A DNA stretch of 64,000 bases from Candidatus Nomurabacteria bacterium (GTDB lineage: Bacteria; Patescibacteriota; Minisyncoccia; Phycocordibacterales; UBA9973). Positions 25,542-30,687 of the stretch are shown in pieces. Every line of letters begins with the position of its first letter. The stretch's first letter is position 1. A program made the translations under genes and the position numbers. Where the stretch lies: contig JAPLXS010000006.1 of NCBI GenBank assembly GCA_026395965.1, positions 10,851 through 74,850 of the forward strand. The letters run 5' to 3'. Under the pieces are notes generated by a model that did no database searches, was not told the origin of the DNA, and was given only the letters and a program-made list of their open reading frames with translations.

Positions 25542-26933
25542 TTATTTTGAATACTTATTTAAAAATTCATTTTTAAAATCATGAAATGTATTATTTAAAA
25601 TTGAGTTACGCATGTCTGAAACTAGTTTAGTTATAAAATATATATTGTGTATTGAAGCAAGTGTAGCCCCCAACATTTCTTTTGCACGGAAAAGATGAGA
25701 CATATAACTTCTGGTGTAGTTCTTGCAAGTATAGCACTCACAGCCTTCATCTATAATATTAAAATCTTCAACAAATTTTGCATTTAGAATATTTATTTTA
25801 CCATTTTTTGTAAACATAGTTCCATTGCGAGCTATACGAGTAGGACCTACACAATCAAAAAGATCTACTCCATTTTCAACTCCCATAAATAAATCAATTG
25901 GTTCGCCTATTCCCAATAAATGGCGAGGTTTTTCTTCTGGAAGAATTTCATTTACCCACTTAACAGCAGTAGACATATCTTCCTTTGCAAATGAACCACC
26001 AATACCAAAACCATCAAAATCCATACTTCCAATAACCTCTGCGGATTTTTTACGAAGTATTTCTGAGCGTCCACCTTGAACGATACCGAAGAGTGCCTGA
26101 GGCAGAACCTGAAGATTTTGCTCAGGCGAATTGGTCTGGCCCCTCGTCCTTCCTCGTCCGAGGACCTGAGAATGAGCAAAATCTTCAGGTTCTGCCTTAA
26201 TCGAAGCAGGAATTTTTAGAGATACAACCTCAGATTTGTCGAAAGGTTGGACCCCTAAAACTTTCTGCGAAGCTTTATTTTCTTTAATATTTTCTAATTC
26301 TTTATGTTTAGTTAAACTCCTCTTTGCCCATGCGTGAGTACGGGAAAGAGCTTCTTCTTGATATTTGTCATTTTCAGTAGGAGAAGTACATTCATCAAAA
26401 GCAAAAATAATATCTGCTCCGAGATTGTGCTGAATCTCTATCGATTTTTCTGGAGTAATATAATGAAGTGAACCATCTATATGTGATCTAAAAGATACTC
26501 CATCATTACCAACAACTGCAAGTCTTGGAATACCATCATCAACACTTGAACGTTCTGCTATGAGCAAACTAGGGTCAGTAACTGCAATAACTTTTGATAT
26601 TTCTTTTCCATAAGCAACTCCTAAAGAAAAAACTTGAAAGCCACCTGAGTCAGTCATTAGAGGACCAGACCAATTCATAAATTTATGTAACCCACCCGCA
26701 TCACGAATAAGTTCATCTCCTGGTTGTAAATATAAATGGTAAGTATTGGCAAGTGTTACTTGAACTTTGTCTGAAATTAGTTGTTCTGTTGTAACACTTT
26801 TAACAGTTCCTTTCGTACCAACTACAACAAAAGATGGTGTAAGGATATCACCATGTGGAGTAGAAAGTACTCCTGCCCTTCCCAAAAAATTTGGGATTTT
26901 CTTTTCTATTTTAAAATTTAATGCTTTTTTCAT
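25542..26933 (-). CDS. tgt: Queuine tRNA-ribosyltransferase, carrying an in-frame insertion of about 55 aa before the ALFGIVQGG motif.
   Basis: GTKGTVKSVTTEQL, LANTYHLYLQPG, MTDSGGFQVFSLG and ALFGIVQGG match Tgt. The segment between WAKRS and ALFGIVQGG is about 73 aa against about 20 in E. coli Tgt. Confidence 0.85.
   Translation of the reverse strand: MKKALNFKIEKKIPNFLGRAGVLSTPHGDILTPSFVVVGTKGTVKSVTTEQLISDKVQVTLANTYHLYLQPGDELIRDAGGLHKFMNWSGPLMTDSGGFQVFSLGVAYGKEISKVIAVTDPSLLIAERSSVDDGIPRLAVVGNDGVSFRSHIDGSLHYITPEKSIEIQHNLGADIIFAFDECTSPTENDKYQEEALSRTHAWAKRSLTKHKELENIKENKASQKVLGVQPFDKSEVVSLKIPASIKAEPEDFAHSQVLGRGRTRGQTNSPEQNLQVLPQALFGIVQGGRSEILRKKSAEVIGSMDFDGFGIGGSFAKEDMSTAVKWVNEILPEEKPRHLLGIGEPIDLFMGVENGVDLFDCVGPTRIARNGTMFTKNGKINILNAKFVEDFNIIDEGCECYTCKNYTRSYMSHLFRAKEMLGATLASIHNIYFITKLVSDMRNSILNNTFHDFKNEFLNKYSK
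26101..26196. repeat. Palindromic element inside the tgt coding sequence: 24-bp perfect inverted arms flanking a 48-bp GC-rich core.
   Basis: Arms ggcagaacctgaagattttgctca (26101-26124) and tgagcaaaatcttcaggttctgcc (26173-26196). Core ggtctggcccctcgtccttcctcgtccgaggacc. Confidence 0.6.
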
Positions 26934-27038
26934 ATATTTTGTAATTGTGGATAACTATTGCATATACGATATATATATTGTATACTACAAATATCTTAGG
27001 GTTTTAGTCATAAAACTTTAAGGGTATTACATCCAAGG

Positions 27039-27070
27039 GTAGCCCTCCGCAAGGAGGGCTACTTTTATTT
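27039..27070 (+). terminator. GC-rich hairpin gtagccctcc-gcaa-ggagggctac plus T-tract, plus-oriented, overlapping the stop of the NYN gene.
   Basis: Read directly. It stands out against the AT-rich background. Confidence 0.4.
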
Positions 27071-27642
27071 TAAGACTTATCATCTTTATGTTTTAACTCT
27101 CTTCCCCAAATGTCTGCTTCTATCTTTAATACATCAAAGTATCCATCTCCCCCTGTTCTTAATTCTTGGGATATATTATTTTTTGAAGAAAAAGTAAAAA
27201 CTTTTTTTCCATCATTACGTAAATAATTTACTAATGCTAGAAAATCTGAATCGCCAGTAAATAAAATAGCTGTATCATATTTTTTACAAAAATGCATCGC
27301 ATCTATTGTCATTTCAACATCCATATTACCTTTTTCTTGTATTAAATCACCTAAATCACTATGCTCCACAATTCTTTTTAATTCCTTTTTTCTAACAGTA
27401 AAACCTAAACCCTTTTTAAGATAAGTATAAAATTTATGTTTTGAATCCTGGCTTTTTTCTCTAGTCCCTTCCTTAGGATAAGCAGTATAGTAAAATATTT
27501 GAATATCTGAGGCATTAAATTTTTCTTTCAAAAAAAACTTAAGTTTTTCAAAATCAAACATTCTTCCTTTTACCTTTTGAGCCTGCCAAAGATTTGATGC
27601 ATCTATAAATACATATATAATTTTTTTATTTTCATCAATCAT
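27070..27642 (-). CDS. NYN-domain (LabA-like, PIN-fold) ribonuclease.
   Basis: IYVFIDASNLW, DVEMTIDAM and ILFTGDSDFLALVNYLRNDGKKV match the NYN/LabA acidic-residue pattern. Confidence 0.6.
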   Translation of the reverse strand: MIDENKKIIYVFIDASNLWQAQKVKGRMFDFEKLKFFLKEKFNASDIQIFYYTAYPKEGTREKSQDSKHKFYTYLKKGLGFTVRKKELKRIVEHSDLGDLIQEKGNMDVEMTIDAMHFCKKYDTAILFTGDSDFLALVNYLRNDGKKVFTFSSKNNISQELRTGGDGYFDVLKIEADIWGRELKHKDDKS

Positions 27643-27671
27643 AATTAACTACCATAAGACTTAAAAAATAA

Positions 27672-28775
27672 TTATTTACCTGACTTAGTTCTATTATCCT
27701 CTTTACACAACATCTGACAATTATCAGCAATAGTTCTTCCTCCTTCATGCCATGGTTTTATATGATCAGCTTCCATATCTCCAATTGAAAATTCTTTTTT
27801 ACAAAAAGGACAAATACCATCTTGTCGTTCATATGACTCTCGTTTCATATTTGATGTAAATGCTCGAATAGAAAGATATCTCTCTTTTTTAGTAAGTACA
27901 TATGGATAAATACCAGATTTTTTTGTTACATCTTCATCTTGCATTAATTCTTTGATTTCGTTCTCAAGTTTTTTAGAATCAAGTTTTTTATCATTAAATG
28001 TATTATAAAGTTCACCCCAATTTACGCTAGACATTTCTTTTCTATAATTAGGAAAAACTTCTCGCACCCAATGAATTACATTTTGAAAATATTGCCATAG
28101 TTTATCCGCATTTTTATCGTGCTGATGTTTTGACATATAATCTTCTATCTCTTCATCATTTATCCATGATAATGCAGTTTCTAAATATTCTTGTCGAATT
28201 GGAGAACCAGTTATTAATTGCCCTCCGTCATTTGCAAGCAAATATGCAGCACAATTTGTTTTACTAAATTTTAGTTTTACATCAGAAAGCCACGGTCCTG
28301 TATATACGGCATTTCTAAGTTCTTGATTCGTTAATTCCATTCCCGCAATATTGATAATCTTAAACCAATCAAGCTTTTCTTTCTCTTCTCCTTCGCAATG
28401 ATAAATCATAAGTTCATAATTTAAAATCTGTTCTTGTTCTTCTTTGGTTAAATTATGAAACATTGCGGTTCGTCCATTGAAATCAATTGAAAAATCACCA
28501 TTTACATATTGAGCTATACTAATTGTTCTTTGTTGTCCATCAAGTACTTCAAAATTTCCGTCTTCCTTTTTTACCCAATACATAACATTAAGTGGAAAAT
28601 CCTTTTTAATTGTTTTGATTACCTCGTCACGATGTTTAACATCATATACAAATTCTCGCTGGTATTTTGGACGAATATCTAATTTACCACCAAAAGCAGA
28701 TACTCCTTCTTCGGCGCTATCTTTATAGTCTTTTACAACTTCTTCAATTTTAATTTTATGTAAATCTATTTTCAT
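27672..28775 (-). CDS. DUF262 (ParB/Srx-like NTP-binding domain)-HNH endonuclease fusion. Candidate restriction or defence nuclease.
   Basis: PKYQREFVYD and LDGQQRTISI are the DUF262 signatures. The C-terminal CPFCKKEF...DMEADHIKPWHEGGRTIADNCQMLCKEDNRTK is a canonical HNH motif. Confidence 0.65.
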   Translation of the reverse strand: MKIDLHKIKIEEVVKDYKDSAEEGVSAFGGKLDIRPKYQREFVYDVKHRDEVIKTIKKDFPLNVMYWVKKEDGNFEVLDGQQRTISIAQYVNGDFSIDFNGRTAMFHNLTKEEQEQILNYELMIYHCEGEEKEKLDWFKIINIAGMELTNQELRNAVYTGPWLSDVKLKFSKTNCAAYLLANDGGQLITGSPIRQEYLETALSWINDEEIEDYMSKHQHDKNADKLWQYFQNVIHWVREVFPNYRKEMSSVNWGELYNTFNDKKLDSKKLENEIKELMQDEDVTKKSGIYPYVLTKKERYLSIRAFTSNMKRESYERQDGICPFCKKEFSIGDMEADHIKPWHEGGRTIADNCQMLCKEDNRTKSGK

Positions 28776-28776
28776 A

Positions 28777-29871
28777 TTATTTTTTTACCTTTTTATTTCT
28801 TATAACTATTCGAACATAAGTAGGTTTACCATTTATTGCACCATCTTTATCTTTAATAAGTCCGTGATCTTTAAATGGCACTCTATCATTAGTTCTGATG
28901 TTATTTGAGCTTATTATTTCAAATTGCGCTGGGTTATATTTATCTAAAAATGTTATTGGCACCCCCATTGCTCCTTTATAATCCATTGGAATATCACTTA
29001 CTTTGTCAATATTTATAGCTTTATAATTGTCATATTCTAGAAATTCTTTTGGTGAATATTTTTTATATAAAGTCATTTCTTGGTGACGTTTTATAGTATC
29101 TAGGTTTGTAAACCACATAATACGCCCCATACTAAAAAATTTTATATTATTTTCAATTTTTATTCTCGTCTCTGTTTCTATATTATAATCATCAGGAACT
29201 TGGAACCATTTAGTTCCACCATTATCATAGCCAAGCCACAACTTATCTTCTTTAATCAATTTAAAAGTTTCTTTATATGTGATAGCATTTTGATCACCAA
29301 GAATCAAAAATTTTTTATTATATTCAACTAATTGTGCAACATATTCTCTAAATAATGAAAAAGGAGGGTTAGTTACTACAATATCCGCCTGTTTTAAAAG
29401 TTCAATACTTTCTAGACTTCGAAAATCTCCATCGCCATTCATAGGCAACCATTCGTTGTTTTTATTTGCTTTTAGTTGTTCTGCAATATCACGCAAATCA
29501 AAAGCACCGTCACCATCTAAATCATGAACTTCATTTATAATAAATTTATTAGCATTCACTTTTGGACGACCTTTTACCGAAACAAGTGTTTTATCATTAC
29601 CAAATAATGCCAACTGAGTATTGGCAATTGGTGAAGGTTTATAACTAGTAGCAATAAGCCTTTTTAAACCAAGAGCATTAAAGTTTGATGCAAAATATTT
29701 AAAAAAATTACTTTCAAAAGGATCATCACAGTTACAATATACTACTTTGTTACGAAATTGTTCCTTGTAGTGTTTTAACTCTTTTTCAATATCAATAAGC
29801 TGAGTATAAAACTCATCCTTTTTTGCTTTGTTTGCCTTATGTAAATTATTATTTAATGATTTAGTAACCAT
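28777..29871 (-). CDS. N6-adenine DNA methyltransferase of the EcoRI-methylase-like family.
   Basis: DEFYTQ near the N-terminus, VVYCNCDDPFESNFFKYF, and catalytic motif IV IVVTNPPFSLFREY (NPPF). The family assignment is from memory of M.EcoRI-like proteins. Confidence 0.6.
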   Translation of the reverse strand: MVTKSLNNNLHKANKAKKDEFYTQLIDIEKELKHYKEQFRNKVVYCNCDDPFESNFFKYFASNFNALGLKRLIATSYKPSPIANTQLALFGNDKTLVSVKGRPKVNANKFIINEVHDLDGDGAFDLRDIAEQLKANKNNEWLPMNGDGDFRSLESIELLKQADIVVTNPPFSLFREYVAQLVEYNKKFLILGDQNAITYKETFKLIKEDKLWLGYDNGGTKWFQVPDDYNIETETRIKIENNIKFFSMGRIMWFTNLDTIKRHQEMTLYKKYSPKEFLEYDNYKAINIDKVSDIPMDYKGAMGVPITFLDKYNPAQFEIISSNNIRTNDRVPFKDHGLIKDKDGAINGKPTYVRIVIRNKKVKK

Positions 29872-29889
29872 ATTCTATATTATACATTT

Positions 29890-30687
29890 TTAATCTTTTT
29901 TTACTTGTATCCACTTAATATTCTGAACATTTACAGGCGAACTAAGAATAACCTTTTTAAAAGGATCAGATGGTTTTGATAATACTTCATCTATAACAGC
30001 AACAACTAAAGATGAACTTCCGGGCAAGTAGACTAGTGTTCCTTTTGGAGCAGACAAATCAATAGGAATAATCATTTCAAAATTTCCTCCTCCTCTACCT
30101 GTTAATTCAACACTAGCATTTGTAATATCCATAAATCCTTCAGTTTTGAAACCAGGATTTGTATATAAAGAAACCAATGAGGTTTTGTCATAAACTTTAC
30201 TTATGGTGCCGATAGGTATATTGCCACTAGCATAAACTTGATCACCTTCTTTAATATTCAAAGAACTTCCTATATCGATTATAAGAGTATCATATGGTGA
30301 ATTATTTGGTTTAGAAAGAATATTTCCAAGTATAAAATTATGTGTAGCAGGAACACGTCCCAATAGTTCTTTAAGTTGATTATTTTCATTTTTTAAAATT
30401 TGATAATCAACCATAGACAATTTAGTCCATGAAATTTCTTCTATTAAATTATGATTCTCTTTTGAGATAGCAGATTTTGTACGAAAAAAATAGTTAACAT
30501 TATATATACCATCTGTTACAAATTTCTCTACTCCCCAGATAGGTCTACCAACAAAATTAAACATTCTTCCTGACCAAGAAAAAAATCCTAATACTGACAA
30601 AATAAAAAAAATACCAAAACCTATTGCGTTTCGAATAATTTTTTTTCTTTTTATTATTTGTTTTTTATCTTGGAACTGATATGTCAT
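29890..30687 (-). CDS. mreC: Rod shape-determining protein MreC.
   Basis: N-terminal TM segment, coiled-coil, then a beta-rich domain. It lies immediately downstream of mreB. Confidence 0.65.
   Translation of the reverse strand: MTYQFQDKKQIIKRKKIIRNAIGFGIFFILSVLGFFSWSGRMFNFVGRPIWGVEKFVTDGIYNVNYFFRTKSAISKENHNLIEEISWTKLSMVDYQILKNENNQLKELLGRVPATHNFILGNILSKPNNSPYDTLIIDIGSSLNIKEGDQVYASGNIPIGTISKVYDKTSLVSLYTNPGFKTEGFMDITNASVELTGRGGGNFEMIIPIDLSAPKGTLVYLPGSSSLVVAVIDEVLSKPSDPFKKVILSSPVNVQNIKWIQVKKD

What the first reader, a model, noticed from the sequence alone, without database searches (positions are those of the whole stretch)
27070..29871. Tightly coupled MTase / DUF262-HNH nuclease / NYN RNase islet between tgt and mreC: a candidate uncharacterised restriction or defence system
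Three minus-strand genes are packed end to end.
- The EcoRI-methylase-like N6A MTase ends with TAA one nucleotide before the ATG of the nuclease.
- The nuclease combines a DUF262 domain (ParB/sulfiredoxin-like, YQRE and DGQQR motifs) with a C-terminal HNH motif.
- A NYN/LabA-like RNase follows after a 29-nt gap.

DUF262 fused to a His-Me-finger nuclease is the architecture of GmrSD/SspE/BrxU-type modification-dependent enzymes. Here the nuclease module is a classical HNH, and it is paired with a methyltransferase, which is what a classical type II-like restriction-modification pair looks like. The extra NYN RNase in the same operon is not part of any described restriction-modification layout. 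It hints at a composite DNA-plus-RNA-targeting defence module. The trio interrupts an otherwise housekeeping stretch (tgt ... mreCB proS), the typical position of a defence islet.
Basis: partly seen in the sequence, partly recalled or inferred. Interest (0 to 1): 0.8.

Follow-up and report, generated by a model that had tools for sequence, protein, structure and literature searches.

The report
Mobile restriction-modification pair beside resident RNase
Two of the three genes are an ordinary, horizontally spreading restriction-modification pair inserted between housekeeping genes, while the third (the NYN RNase) is a resident gene whose constant partner is an undescribed small RNA, not the restriction system.

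Summary
In detail: three minus-strand ORFs with the stated junctions and domains (PF13651; PF03235+PF01844; PF01936).

The methyltransferase and the DUF262-HNH nuclease are a genuine two-gene unit. They are adjacent in 77 of 77 testable loci from other species. Nucleotide similarity stops exactly at the pair's ends. The pair also occurs on plasmids, in a phage and as a fused protein.

It is not an unknown layout. PADLOC's Type II models match both proteins over their full length. The Bifidobacterium BanLI system (EcoRI-like methylase plus a "DUF262" nuclease, site RTCAGG) is a probable characterised relative.

NYN is not part of the unit. It is adjacent in 0 of 80 cassette loci. A relative has mreC-NYN-tgt with no RM genes, and another has a different RM enzyme in the same slot. 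NYN's synonymous sites are as saturated as its neighbours', so it is resident.

The recognition site could not be inferred.

Unexpectedly, a roughly 78-nt structured RNA gene with no Rfam family lies convergent to NYN in 14 of 14 contexts. It occurs once beside a MazF-like RNase instead.

The parts
28777..29871 (-). N6-adenine DNA methyltransferase, M.EcoRI family (M of the cassette)
   Evidence: PF13651 E=5e-139, full length. PADLOC MTase_II PDLC03297 E=3e-125. NPPF at aa 168, DPF at aa 50. Directly upstream of R in 77 of 77 testable loci.
27672..28775 (-). DUF262 (ParB/Srx-like) + classical HNH nuclease (R of the cassette)
   Evidence: PF03235 at residues 34-158 and PF01844 at 322-365. PADLOC REase_II PDLC03418, residues 1-367, E=7.5e-135. 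DGQQR, YQR, D337-H338, N352, N361 and four Cys are invariant across clades. HNH matches 4h9d, McrA and Cas9 HNH; DUF262 matches BrxU 7p9k only weakly.
28773..28779 (-). Translational-coupling junction TAA-N-ATG between M and R
   Evidence: Read. The same AAATAAT-ATG context precedes R in nearly all 80 loci, whether the upstream gene is M or an unrelated cargo gene.
29872..29889 (-). 18-nt leader between the mreC stop and the M start; left edge of the inserted unit
   Evidence: Nucleotide similarity to the 80 other cassettes ends at about 29885 (95th percentile 29884). No controller (HTH) gene here, unlike at least 8 other loci.
27070..27642 (-). NYN/LabA-like (COG1432) predicted RNase: a resident neighbour, not part of the cassette
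   Evidence: PF01936 E=1e-24. Matches 2qip with the acidic motifs DV..D and GDxDF aligned. Adjacent in 0 of 80 cassette loci. Empty site in L097. Synonymous sites saturated like its neighbours.
26993..27071 (+). Candidate small structured RNA gene (about 78 nt), convergent with NYN: 5' hairpin, invariant unpaired GGGUAUUACAUCC (27022-27034), terminator hairpin 27039-27062 plus U-run
   Evidence: Present once in 14 of 14 NYN contexts. Nine pairs kept through compensatory changes; 97% of cells paired vs 88% in shuffles (0/500). No Rfam family at gathering score.
26946..26986 (+). Inferred promoter of the small RNA: TGTGGATAA box (26946-26954), -35 TTGCAT (26958-26963), 17-nt spacer, -10 TATACT (26981-26986)
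   Evidence: The -10 is nearly invariant and the -35 TTGAC(T) is conserved in the 15-sequence alignment. The TGTGGATAA box is present in 7 sequences and inverted in 2. The box is not a general motif of this genome (2 copies in 64 kb, about 1 expected).
29890..30687 (-). mreC, left flank of the insertion site
   Evidence: PF04085. Syntenic in L081 and L097.
25542..26933 (-). tgt, right flank of the resident NYN-RNA module
   Evidence: PF01702 E=3e-131. Syntenic in L081 and L097.

Best explanation
A 2.2-kb horizontally mobile Type II-like restriction-modification cassette has inserted between mreC and a resident NYN gene in a Candidatus Nomurabacteria chromosome. Its M is an M.EcoRI-family m6A methyltransferase and its R is a DUF262-HNH nuclease.

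Shown:
- M and R are co-inherited.
- Both are catalytically intact.
- They are translationally coupled through a TAA-N-ATG junction that is a family trait.
- They are found in many phyla, on plasmids, in a phage, and fused into one protein.

Inferred:
- M methylates adenine in a short specific sequence, possibly an asymmetric one modified on a single strand as in BanLI.
- R cuts DNA that lacks that mark using its HNH site.
- The ParB/Srx-like DUF262 domain acts as a nucleotide-binding regulatory or DNA-clamping module.
- Coupling R's translation to the upstream gene ensures that R is never made without M.

NYN is not a component of the system. It is a strongly constrained resident RNase gene with its own conserved convergent small RNA, and the RM cassette merely landed in the slot upstream of it.
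For: Identity of the pair:
- Domains and motifs.
- Full-length matches to PADLOC Type II R and M models.
- BanLI precedent (EcoRI-like M, 41.7 kDa, followed by a 43.5-kDa R annotated as a DUF262 protein; RTC(m6A)GG; EOP about 0.1): PMC3990576 and PMC13091528.

Co-inheritance and mobility:
- M lies directly upstream of R in 77 of 80 species-level loci; the other 3 are cut by contig ends.
- Nucleotide similarity is confined to 27672 to about 29885.
- The flanks differ in nearly every locus.
- The pair is on plasmids of four phyla and in Flavobacterium phage laban6-1.
- A 688-aa M-R fusion is seen in two distinct sequences.
- An HTH_3 gene in the controller position lies upstream of M in at least 8 loci.
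- R keeps 0.52-0.61 identity at four-fold sites with loci whose flanks are unrelated (chance 0.38).

NYN is resident:
- Empty site mreC-NYN-tgt in L097, and a Type IIG/ISP enzyme in the same slot in L081.
- NYN's synonymous sites are as saturated as those of mreB, tgt and uvrB.
Against: - No recognition sequence could be inferred. No k-mer, palindromic or not, is depleted specifically in carriers.
- Restriction activity and protection by methylation are untested.
- The link to BanLI rests on published descriptions, not on a sequence comparison made here (one search returned no organism names).
- Structure models were poor (pLDDT 48 and 58), so the role of DUF262 is inferred only from family knowledge.
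- In BanLI, restriction was weak and only one strand was methylated. This leaves open that the family does not behave as a textbook Type II enzyme.
Confidence: 0.8

Rival explanations
1. One reading: M, R and NYN form one three-gene composite system that attacks both DNA and RNA.
For: All three genes are on the same strand with a 29-nt R-NYN gap and no terminator between them, so they are probably co-transcribed here. RNase genes do occur in other members of this RM family: the HEPN family Hypoth_Ymh lies upstream of M in 3 loci.
Against: NYN is adjacent in 0 of 80 cassette loci. Similarity to other cassettes ends at R's stop codon. NYN is present at the same site without RM genes. NYN is vertically inherited. 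NYN sits in purely housekeeping contexts in 5 of 14 cases.
Confidence: 0.04
2. NYN plus its convergent small RNA is a defence-related RNase/RNA module (toxin-antitoxin-like or abortive-infection-like). It associates with restriction systems in general, so the window holds two neighbouring defence modules that may cooperate.
For: - RM genes lie within about 2 kb upstream of NYN on the same strand in 5 of 14 independent contexts. One of these has NYN embedded in hsdM-hsdS-NYN-hsdR.
- 4 further contexts contain mobile or defence-like genes such as SLFN helicase, NERD, Bro-N, RhuM and PycTM.
- The same RNA sits beside a PemK/MazF toxin gene that has no protein antitoxin.
- NYN has weak PADLOC matches to NYN and HEC-09 models.
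Against: - NYN is conserved more strongly than MreB and is vertically inherited, which is unusual for toxin-antitoxin or abortive-infection genes.
- 5 of 14 contexts are purely housekeeping.
- The background frequency of RM genes was not measured.
- The RNA's invariant stretch has no predicted pairing with NYN mRNA beyond shuffled controls.
- An insertion hotspot next to a highly conserved gene would explain the association equally well.
Confidence: 0.15
3. R is a modification-dependent (Type IV, GmrSD/BrxU-like) nuclease, and the adjacent methyltransferase has another role, for example self-marking or anti-restriction.
For: The DUF262 domain with DGQQR is shared with GmrSD, BrxU and SspE (PMC4619093, PMC12707154). 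In BanLI, restriction was weak and methylation was on one strand only.
Against: - The nuclease module is PF01844 HNH, not DUF1524.
- Strict M-to-R adjacency, translational coupling and M-R fusions are the signature of a methylation-protected enzyme.
- Type IV enzymes need no cognate methyltransferase.
- The full-length match is to a Type II REase model.
Confidence: 0.06

Closest known systems
BanLI restriction-modification system of Bifidobacterium animalis subsp. lactis (PMC3990576; REBASE Type II, R annotated 'DUF262 domain-containing protein' in PMC13091528)
   Same: An M.EcoRI-like N6-adenine methyltransferase (41.7 kDa) is followed on the same strand by a nuclease of about 43.5 kDa annotated as a DUF262 protein. 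The order and sizes match the window's 364-aa M and 367-aa R. The locus has atypical GC content and looks horizontally acquired.
   Different: Homology was not verified by sequence here. BanLI lies next to a phage-type integrase; the window copy does not. BanLI's site RTCAGG is not depleted in CPR carriers, and the CPR methyltransferases vary in their C-terminal third, so the specificity probably differs.
Generic Type II RM as modelled in PADLOC/DefenseFinder (MTase_II PDLC03297 + REase_II PDLC03418)
   Same: Both proteins match over their full length with very low E-values. The two genes are adjacent. Some family members have a small HTH gene in the controller position.
   Different: R carries a ParB/Srx-like DUF262 domain that is unusual for Type II enzymes. 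About 30 of 77 loci carry unrelated cargo genes inserted between M and R, a pattern better known from Type I operons.
GmrSD / BrxU / SspE Type IV enzymes (DUF262 + DUF1524)
   Same: An N-terminal DUF262 with QR and DGQQR motifs and a weak profile match to BrxU 7p9k. A His-Me-finger nuclease at the C-terminus.
   Different: The nuclease here is a zinc-finger PF01844 HNH rather than DUF1524. It has an obligate methyltransferase partner. There is no evidence that it depends on DNA modification.
Menshen NsnA (PADLOC PDLC03877)
   Same: The DUF262 domain is similar (E=2.5e-27 over residues 30-167).
   Different: No NsnB or NsnC partner genes are present. Only the DUF262 domain matches.
LabA-like NYN proteins, COG1432 (e.g. 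VPA0982, PDB 2qip)
   Same: The NYN gene matches PF01936 and 2qip with the acidic catalytic motifs aligned. The published neighbourhood link of this group to tRNA/rRNA processing genes (PMC5499597) fits its position next to tgt.
   Different: No partner small RNA has been described for this group in the papers I could search.
Type III toxin-antitoxin systems such as ToxIN (comparison from my own knowledge, not tested here)
   Same: An endoribonuclease gene sits beside a small structured RNA that has its own promoter and terminator. The same RNA also sits beside a MazF/PemK-fold RNase gene in L078.
   Different: The RNA is single-copy and convergent, not a tandem repeat array upstream of the toxin. 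NYN is vertically inherited and highly conserved. Toxicity is unknown.

Membership tests
Type II restriction-modification system | DNA methyltransferase with an AdoMet-dependent amino-methyltransferase catalytic motif | tested here: met
   PF13651, full length, E=5e-139; NPPF at residue 168.
Type II restriction-modification system | Separate endonuclease with intact catalytic residues | tested here: met
   PF01844 HNH. D337-H338, N352, N361 and four Cys are invariant across clades about 40% identical.
Type II restriction-modification system | M and R genes adjacent and co-inherited | tested here: met
   77 of 77 testable loci; plasmids and a phage; M-R fusion protein.
Type II restriction-modification system | Match to curated or derived Type II R and M profiles | tested here: met
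   PADLOC REase_II PDLC03418 E=7.5e-135 and MTase_II PDLC03297 E=3e-125, both full length.
Type II restriction-modification system | Defined recognition sequence; cleavage blocked by the cognate methylation | not testable with these tools
   K-mer avoidance was uninformative. Methylome data and enzyme assays are needed.
GmrSD family (Type IV) | N-terminal DUF262 with a DGQQR motif | tested here: met
   PF03235 E=5e-19; DGQQR invariant.
GmrSD family (Type IV) | C-terminal DUF1524 nuclease domain | tested here: not met
   Pfam reports PF01844/PF14279 and no DUF1524. PDB profile hits are to Gme HNH, McrA and Cas9 HNH.
GmrSD family (Type IV) | Stand-alone enzyme without a cognate methyltransferase | tested here: not met
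   An obligate upstream methyltransferase is present.
   0 of 80 loci; similarity ends at R's stop codon; empty site in L097.
Menshen (NsnABC) | NsnA accompanied by NsnB and NsnC partner genes | tested here: not met
   The neighbours are M, mreC and NYN by Pfam. Only the DUF262 domain matches NsnA.
Any Rfam family (for the small RNA next to NYN) | Score at or above the family's gathering threshold | tested here: not met
   The best hits (BTnc231 33.5 vs 80.4 bits; DUF3800-I 29.9 vs 44.2 bits) are driven by the terminator. There is no match at that position in 13 other loci.
Type III toxin-antitoxin (ToxIN-like), for NYN plus the RNA | RNA antitoxin encoded as tandem repeats next to an endoribonuclease toxin | tested here: not met
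   The covariance model finds a single copy per locus, and it is convergent with the RNase gene. Toxicity cannot be tested here.

The most novel reading that the evidence does not exclude
The NYN RNase and the convergent 78-nt structured RNA form a previously undescribed, deeply conserved RNase-RNA two-part module of Patescibacteria. The RNA would regulate, neutralise or be processed by the RNase; the same RNA also partners a MazF-like RNase. The module's upstream flank would be a preferred landing site for restriction systems, so in this window an RM cassette and an RNA-controlled RNase may act as neighbouring layers of defence.

Separately, the DUF262-HNH enzymes may be nucleotide-regulated restriction enzymes that protect the host by single-strand methylation of asymmetric sites. 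That mechanism has not been worked out for any Type II family.
Probability: 0.25. Interest if true: 0.7.

Novelty: new member of a known kind. Interest (0 to 1): 0.4.

Why it matters
For the finding as posed, the result is mainly a correction. An automated pipeline would already label the pair as RM type II, and the attractive "DNA plus RNA" trio is an accident of insertion.

Three things still have value:
1. This RM family is very large: about 479 clusters at 50% identity and many thousands at 90%. It is dominant in CPR bacteria and, apart from BanLI, mechanistically unstudied. Its ParB-like domain and the apparent single-strand methylation in BanLI are unexplained.
2. The slot between M and R is a hotspot for diverse toxin-like cargo genes. 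That makes the family a convenient bait for finding new defence genes.
3. The NYN-linked small RNA is a new, well-supported structured RNA in a phylum where almost no regulatory RNAs are known. It gives a concrete handle on the function of bacterial LabA-like NYN proteins, which has been an open question since the domain was defined.

Tried and rejected
1. **Recognition site from k-mer avoidance.** I tested palindromic 4- and 6-mers, then all strand-collapsed 5- and 6-mers, in 895 kb of carrier DNA against 93-127 kb of non-carrier CPR DNA. Nothing is specific to carriers. GAATTC has O/E 0.76-0.78 in carriers and 0.73 in non-carriers. AATT is 1.00 in both. RTCAGG is about 0.9-1.07. GTAC (median 0.79 vs 0.98) is only a hint.
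2. **Structure of R.** Two AlphaFold runs gave pLDDT 48 and 58 because the alignments were shallow. Foldseek against the PDB gave no hit at E<=1e-3; the weak top hits were ParB/Srx-fold proteins. I did not use these results for any claim.
4. **Confirming BanLI membership through cluster names.** No organism names were on record.
5. **IMG/VR scan for the RNA's invariant 16-mer.** Six hits, but they do not fit the covariance model, so they are chance matches.
6. **Pairing between the RNA's invariant stretch and NYN mRNA.** No better than shuffled controls.
7. **Consensus promoter and terminator scan of the operon.** Not above the shuffled expectation.
8. **Rfam hits BTnc231, DUF3800-I, RsaA and Phe_leader.** Rejected as terminator-driven.
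9. **Recent horizontal transfer of NYN**, considered because of its 74-92% identity across lineages. Rejected by synonymous-site saturation.
Full report
**1. What is in the sequence**

The three minus-strand ORFs are real:
- 28777-29871, 364 aa;
- 27672-28775, 367 aa;
- 27070-27642, 190 aa.

The first gene's TAA stop is followed by one nucleotide and then the ATG of the second. A 29-nt gap separates the second and third genes.

The flanking genes are tgt and mreC. An identical nuclease protein is on record from a Candidatus Nomurabacteria (Patescibacteria/CPR) contig of 333 kb.

**2. The methyltransferase and the nuclease are one unit**

I fetched 80 loci from 80 species-level genomes that encode a relative of the nuclease (74-90% identity).
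- The methyltransferase lies immediately upstream on the same strand in 77 of them. The remaining three are cut by a contig end.
- Nucleotide-level similarity between the window and all 80 loci runs from exactly the nuclease's stop codon (27672) to about 15 nt upstream of the methyltransferase's ATG. It never enters NYN or mreC.
- The genes flanking the pair are different in almost every locus.
- The nuclease keeps 0.52-0.61 identity at four-fold degenerate sites with cassettes whose flanks are unrelated (chance 0.38), which is consistent with horizontal spread.
- Outside CPR, the same pair occurs on plasmids of Firmicutes, Proteobacteria, Actinobacteria and Bacteroidetes at 47-60% identity. 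It is annotated [quoted passage not shown]. It also occurs in Flavobacterium phage laban6-1.
- The family holds about 479 clusters at 50% identity with E<=1e-30.
- One representative is a 688-aa fusion of EcoRI_methylase, DUF262 and HNH, seen as two distinct sequences from different sources.
- At least eight loci carry a 68-aa HTH_3 protein 2-5 nt upstream of M, the position of a Type II controller protein. The window's copy has none.

**3. It is a known kind of system**

PADLOC's "REase_II" model PDLC03418 matches residues 1-367 of the nuclease (E=7.5e-135). "MTase_II" model PDLC03297 matches the methyltransferase (E=3e-125). A standard defence annotation would therefore call this RM type II.

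The literature I could search holds no paper on a DUF262 + PF01844 nuclease as such. It does describe BanLI of Bifidobacterium animalis subsp. lactis:
- M.BanLI (41.7 kDa) is aligned with M.EcoRI and methylates one strand of 5'-RTC(m6A)GG-3'.
- The gene downstream encodes a 43.5-kDa nuclease.
- The cloned pair lowered P1vir plaquing about ten-fold (PMC3990576).
- A 2026 paper states that this REBASE Type II nuclease gene is annotated "DUF262 domain-containing protein" (PMC13091528).

Gene order, sizes and annotations match the window's pair. I could not confirm homology by sequence, so I rate the link probable, not shown.

**4. How it probably works**

Shown:
- The methyltransferase has the NPPF catalytic motif.
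- In the nuclease, YQR (38-40), DGQQR (79-83), the zinc cysteines C322/C325/C353/C357 and the HNH residues D337-H338, N352 and N361 are invariant between clades only about 40% identical.
- A profile of 52 diverse members matches classical HNH nucleases: Gme HNH 4h9d at E=4e-7, plus McrA and Cas9 HNH. It reaches the DUF262 protein BrxU (7p9k) only weakly, through the QR-motif region. The nuclease module is therefore not the DUF1524 module of GmrSD, BrxU and SspE.
- The context AAATAAT-ATG (a stop codon, one nucleotide, then the start) precedes the nuclease gene in nearly all loci, whatever gene lies upstream.

Inferred:
- The nuclease's translation is coupled to the upstream gene, so it is not made without the methyltransferase.
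- It cuts DNA that lacks the adenine mark.
- The ParB/Srx-like domain is a nucleotide-binding regulatory or clamping module, by analogy with published work on GmrSD and BrxU (PMC4619093, PMC12707154).

Not resolved: the recognition sequence. No palindromic or asymmetric k-mer is depleted specifically in carrier genomes. Both structure models were too poor to use.

**5. NYN is not part of the system**

- None of the 80 cassette loci has NYN next to the pair.
- NYN homologues are 74-92% identical across many CPR lineages.
- In L097/L098 the order is rpsB-tsf | proS-mreB-mreC-NYN-tgt with no RM genes. This is the empty site.
- In L081 the same slot between mreC and NYN holds a 1025-aa Type IIG/ISP enzyme instead.

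Identity to the window's orthologs:

| Locus | mreB | mreC | NYN | tgt | uvrB |
|---|---|---|---|---|---|
| L081 | 87% | 46% | 83% | 70% | 76% |
| L097 | 69% | 38% | 80% | 62% | not in locus |

NYN's four-fold sites are as saturated as its neighbours': 0.45 against 0.35-0.42 in L081, and 0.17 against 0.10-0.22 in L097, with chance at 0.38. NYN is therefore ancient at this site and under very strong protein-level constraint. The RM cassette is the newcomer.

**6. NYN and restriction systems in general**

- Five have RM genes within about 2 kb upstream on the same strand: the window, L081, hsdM-x-hsdS-NYN-hsdR in L085, ISP...HNH-NYN in L086, and OLD / Sau3AI-like MutH / Dcm / DUF1801-NYN in L095.
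- Five are purely housekeeping: mreC/tgt, glycerate kinase/enolase, map/recJ, ROK, and pyrG/dnaG-rpoD.
- Four contain mobile or defence-like genes.

I did not measure a background rate. Two explanations remain open: an insertion hotspot next to a highly conserved gene, or a functional link.

**7. An unexpected RNA**

The roughly 130 nt downstream of NYN are almost identical in the window, L081 and L097 despite the saturated synonymous sites. The element is present once in all 14 NYN contexts, whatever gene follows it.

Read on the strand opposite NYN (window plus strand), it has these parts:

| Part | Window coordinates |
|---|---|
| TGTGGATAA box | 26946-26954 |
| -35 (TTGCAT here, TTGACT in most loci) | 26958-26963 |
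| -10, nearly invariant TATACT | 26981-26986 |
| 5' hairpin | within the transcript, upstream of the invariant stretch |
| Invariant unpaired stretch GGGUAUUACAUCC | 27022-27034 |
| GC-rich hairpin | 27039-27062 |
| U-run reaching NYN's stop codon | from 27063 |

Structure evidence:
- The consensus fold has 9 pairs kept through changes on both sides.
- 97% of cells pair, against 88% in shuffles (0/500 reach it).
- The covariation score is 0.318 against 0.169 (0/500).
- Sliding the partners drops pairing to 41-67%.

A covariance model finds one copy per NYN locus (83-99 bits) and no other copy in the window or in 79 of the 80 RM loci. The exception is L078. There the RNA (67 bits) lies convergent to a PemK/MazF-family RNase gene that has no protein antitoxin beside it.

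No Rfam family reaches its gathering score. I found no paper describing such a pairing. The invariant stretch shows no predicted pairing with NYN mRNA beyond shuffled controls. The RNA's function is unknown.

**8. Family-level observation**

About 30 of 77 loci carry one or two extra same-strand genes between M and R, from about 20 unrelated families:
- Fic/DOC
- RhuM
- Bro-N
- T5orf172
- DUF2130
- an AAA_15/AAA_21 ATPase
- many with no Pfam match

Three loci have a HEPN (Hypoth_Ymh) gene upstream of M. Toxin-like genes embedded in RM operons have been described for other RM systems (PMC3710099). So "RM plus accessory toxin" does occur in this family, but NYN is not one of the accessories.

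**9. Verdict**

The pair is a new member of a known kind: Type II RM with a DUF262-HNH nuclease, probably BanLI-like. The three-gene composite is not supported. Interest is modest for the RM pair itself. It is raised by the NYN-linked RNA and by the cargo slot, both of which deserve follow-up.

Noticed in passing
window 26946-27071 (+ strand); also L081, L083, L085, L086, L088, L089, L092, L095, L097, L101, L103, L104, L105 just downstream of NYN: An undescribed structured small-RNA gene of about 78 nt, convergent with NYN, present in 14 of 14 NYN contexts. It has its own conserved promoter, an invariant unpaired GGGUAUUACAUCC, and a terminator that abuts NYN's stop codon. Covariation supports both hairpins. 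No Rfam family matches.
   Followed up: yes
L078 3719-4307: The same RNA element (67 bits) lies convergent to a PemK/MazF-family toxin gene that has no protein antitoxin gene beside it (murF ends 49 nt upstream). The RNA therefore partners two unrelated RNase families.
   Followed up: partly
window 26946-26954 and the equivalent position in L086, L089, L095, L097, L104, L105 (inverted in L088, L092): A perfect DnaA-box-like nonamer (TTATCCACA/TGTGGATAA) sits just upstream of the small RNA's -35. It is not a general motif of this genome (2 copies in 64 kb, about 1 expected by chance). Its meaning is unknown.
   Followed up: partly
L001-L080, between the M and R genes (e.g. L001 4836-5999, L022 4980-5999, L042 4527-5999, L055 4771-5982): About 30 of 77 cassettes carry diverse cargo genes inserted between M and R, each again ending one nucleotide before R's ATG. 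They include Fic/DOC, RhuM, Bro-N, T5orf172, DUF2130, an AAA_15/21 ATPase and many unknowns. The slot could serve as a bait for finding new defence or toxin genes.
   Followed up: partly
L035 197-946, L053 523-1272, L059 4294-5043: A 249-aa Hypoth_Ymh (PF09509, HEPN family) gene lies directly upstream of M in three cassettes. This is an RNase genuinely attached to this RM family, unlike NYN.
   Followed up: partly
L085 1780-8084: The NYN gene (77% identical to the window's), with its RNA, sits inside a Type I operon between hsdS and hsdR. This is hard to explain by a simple insertion hotspot upstream of NYN.
   Followed up: no
window 25542-26933 (tgt): The tgt product (463 aa) matches PF01702 in two stretches and is 16-42 aa longer than the syntenic orthologs (421-447 aa). 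This suggests an insertion of some tens of residues in the middle of the enzyme.
   Followed up: no
window about 33200: Gene orientation flips (minus strand before, plus strand after) and GC skew changes sign near 33.2 kb, between proS and rpsB. This is possibly the replication origin region, about 6 kb from the cassette.
   Followed up: no
L105-L108 6064-9024: The dnaG gene downstream of NYN in a Magasanikbacteria-type genome encodes a 986-aa product with Hint and LAGLIDADG hits, i.e. an intein-containing primase.
   Followed up: no
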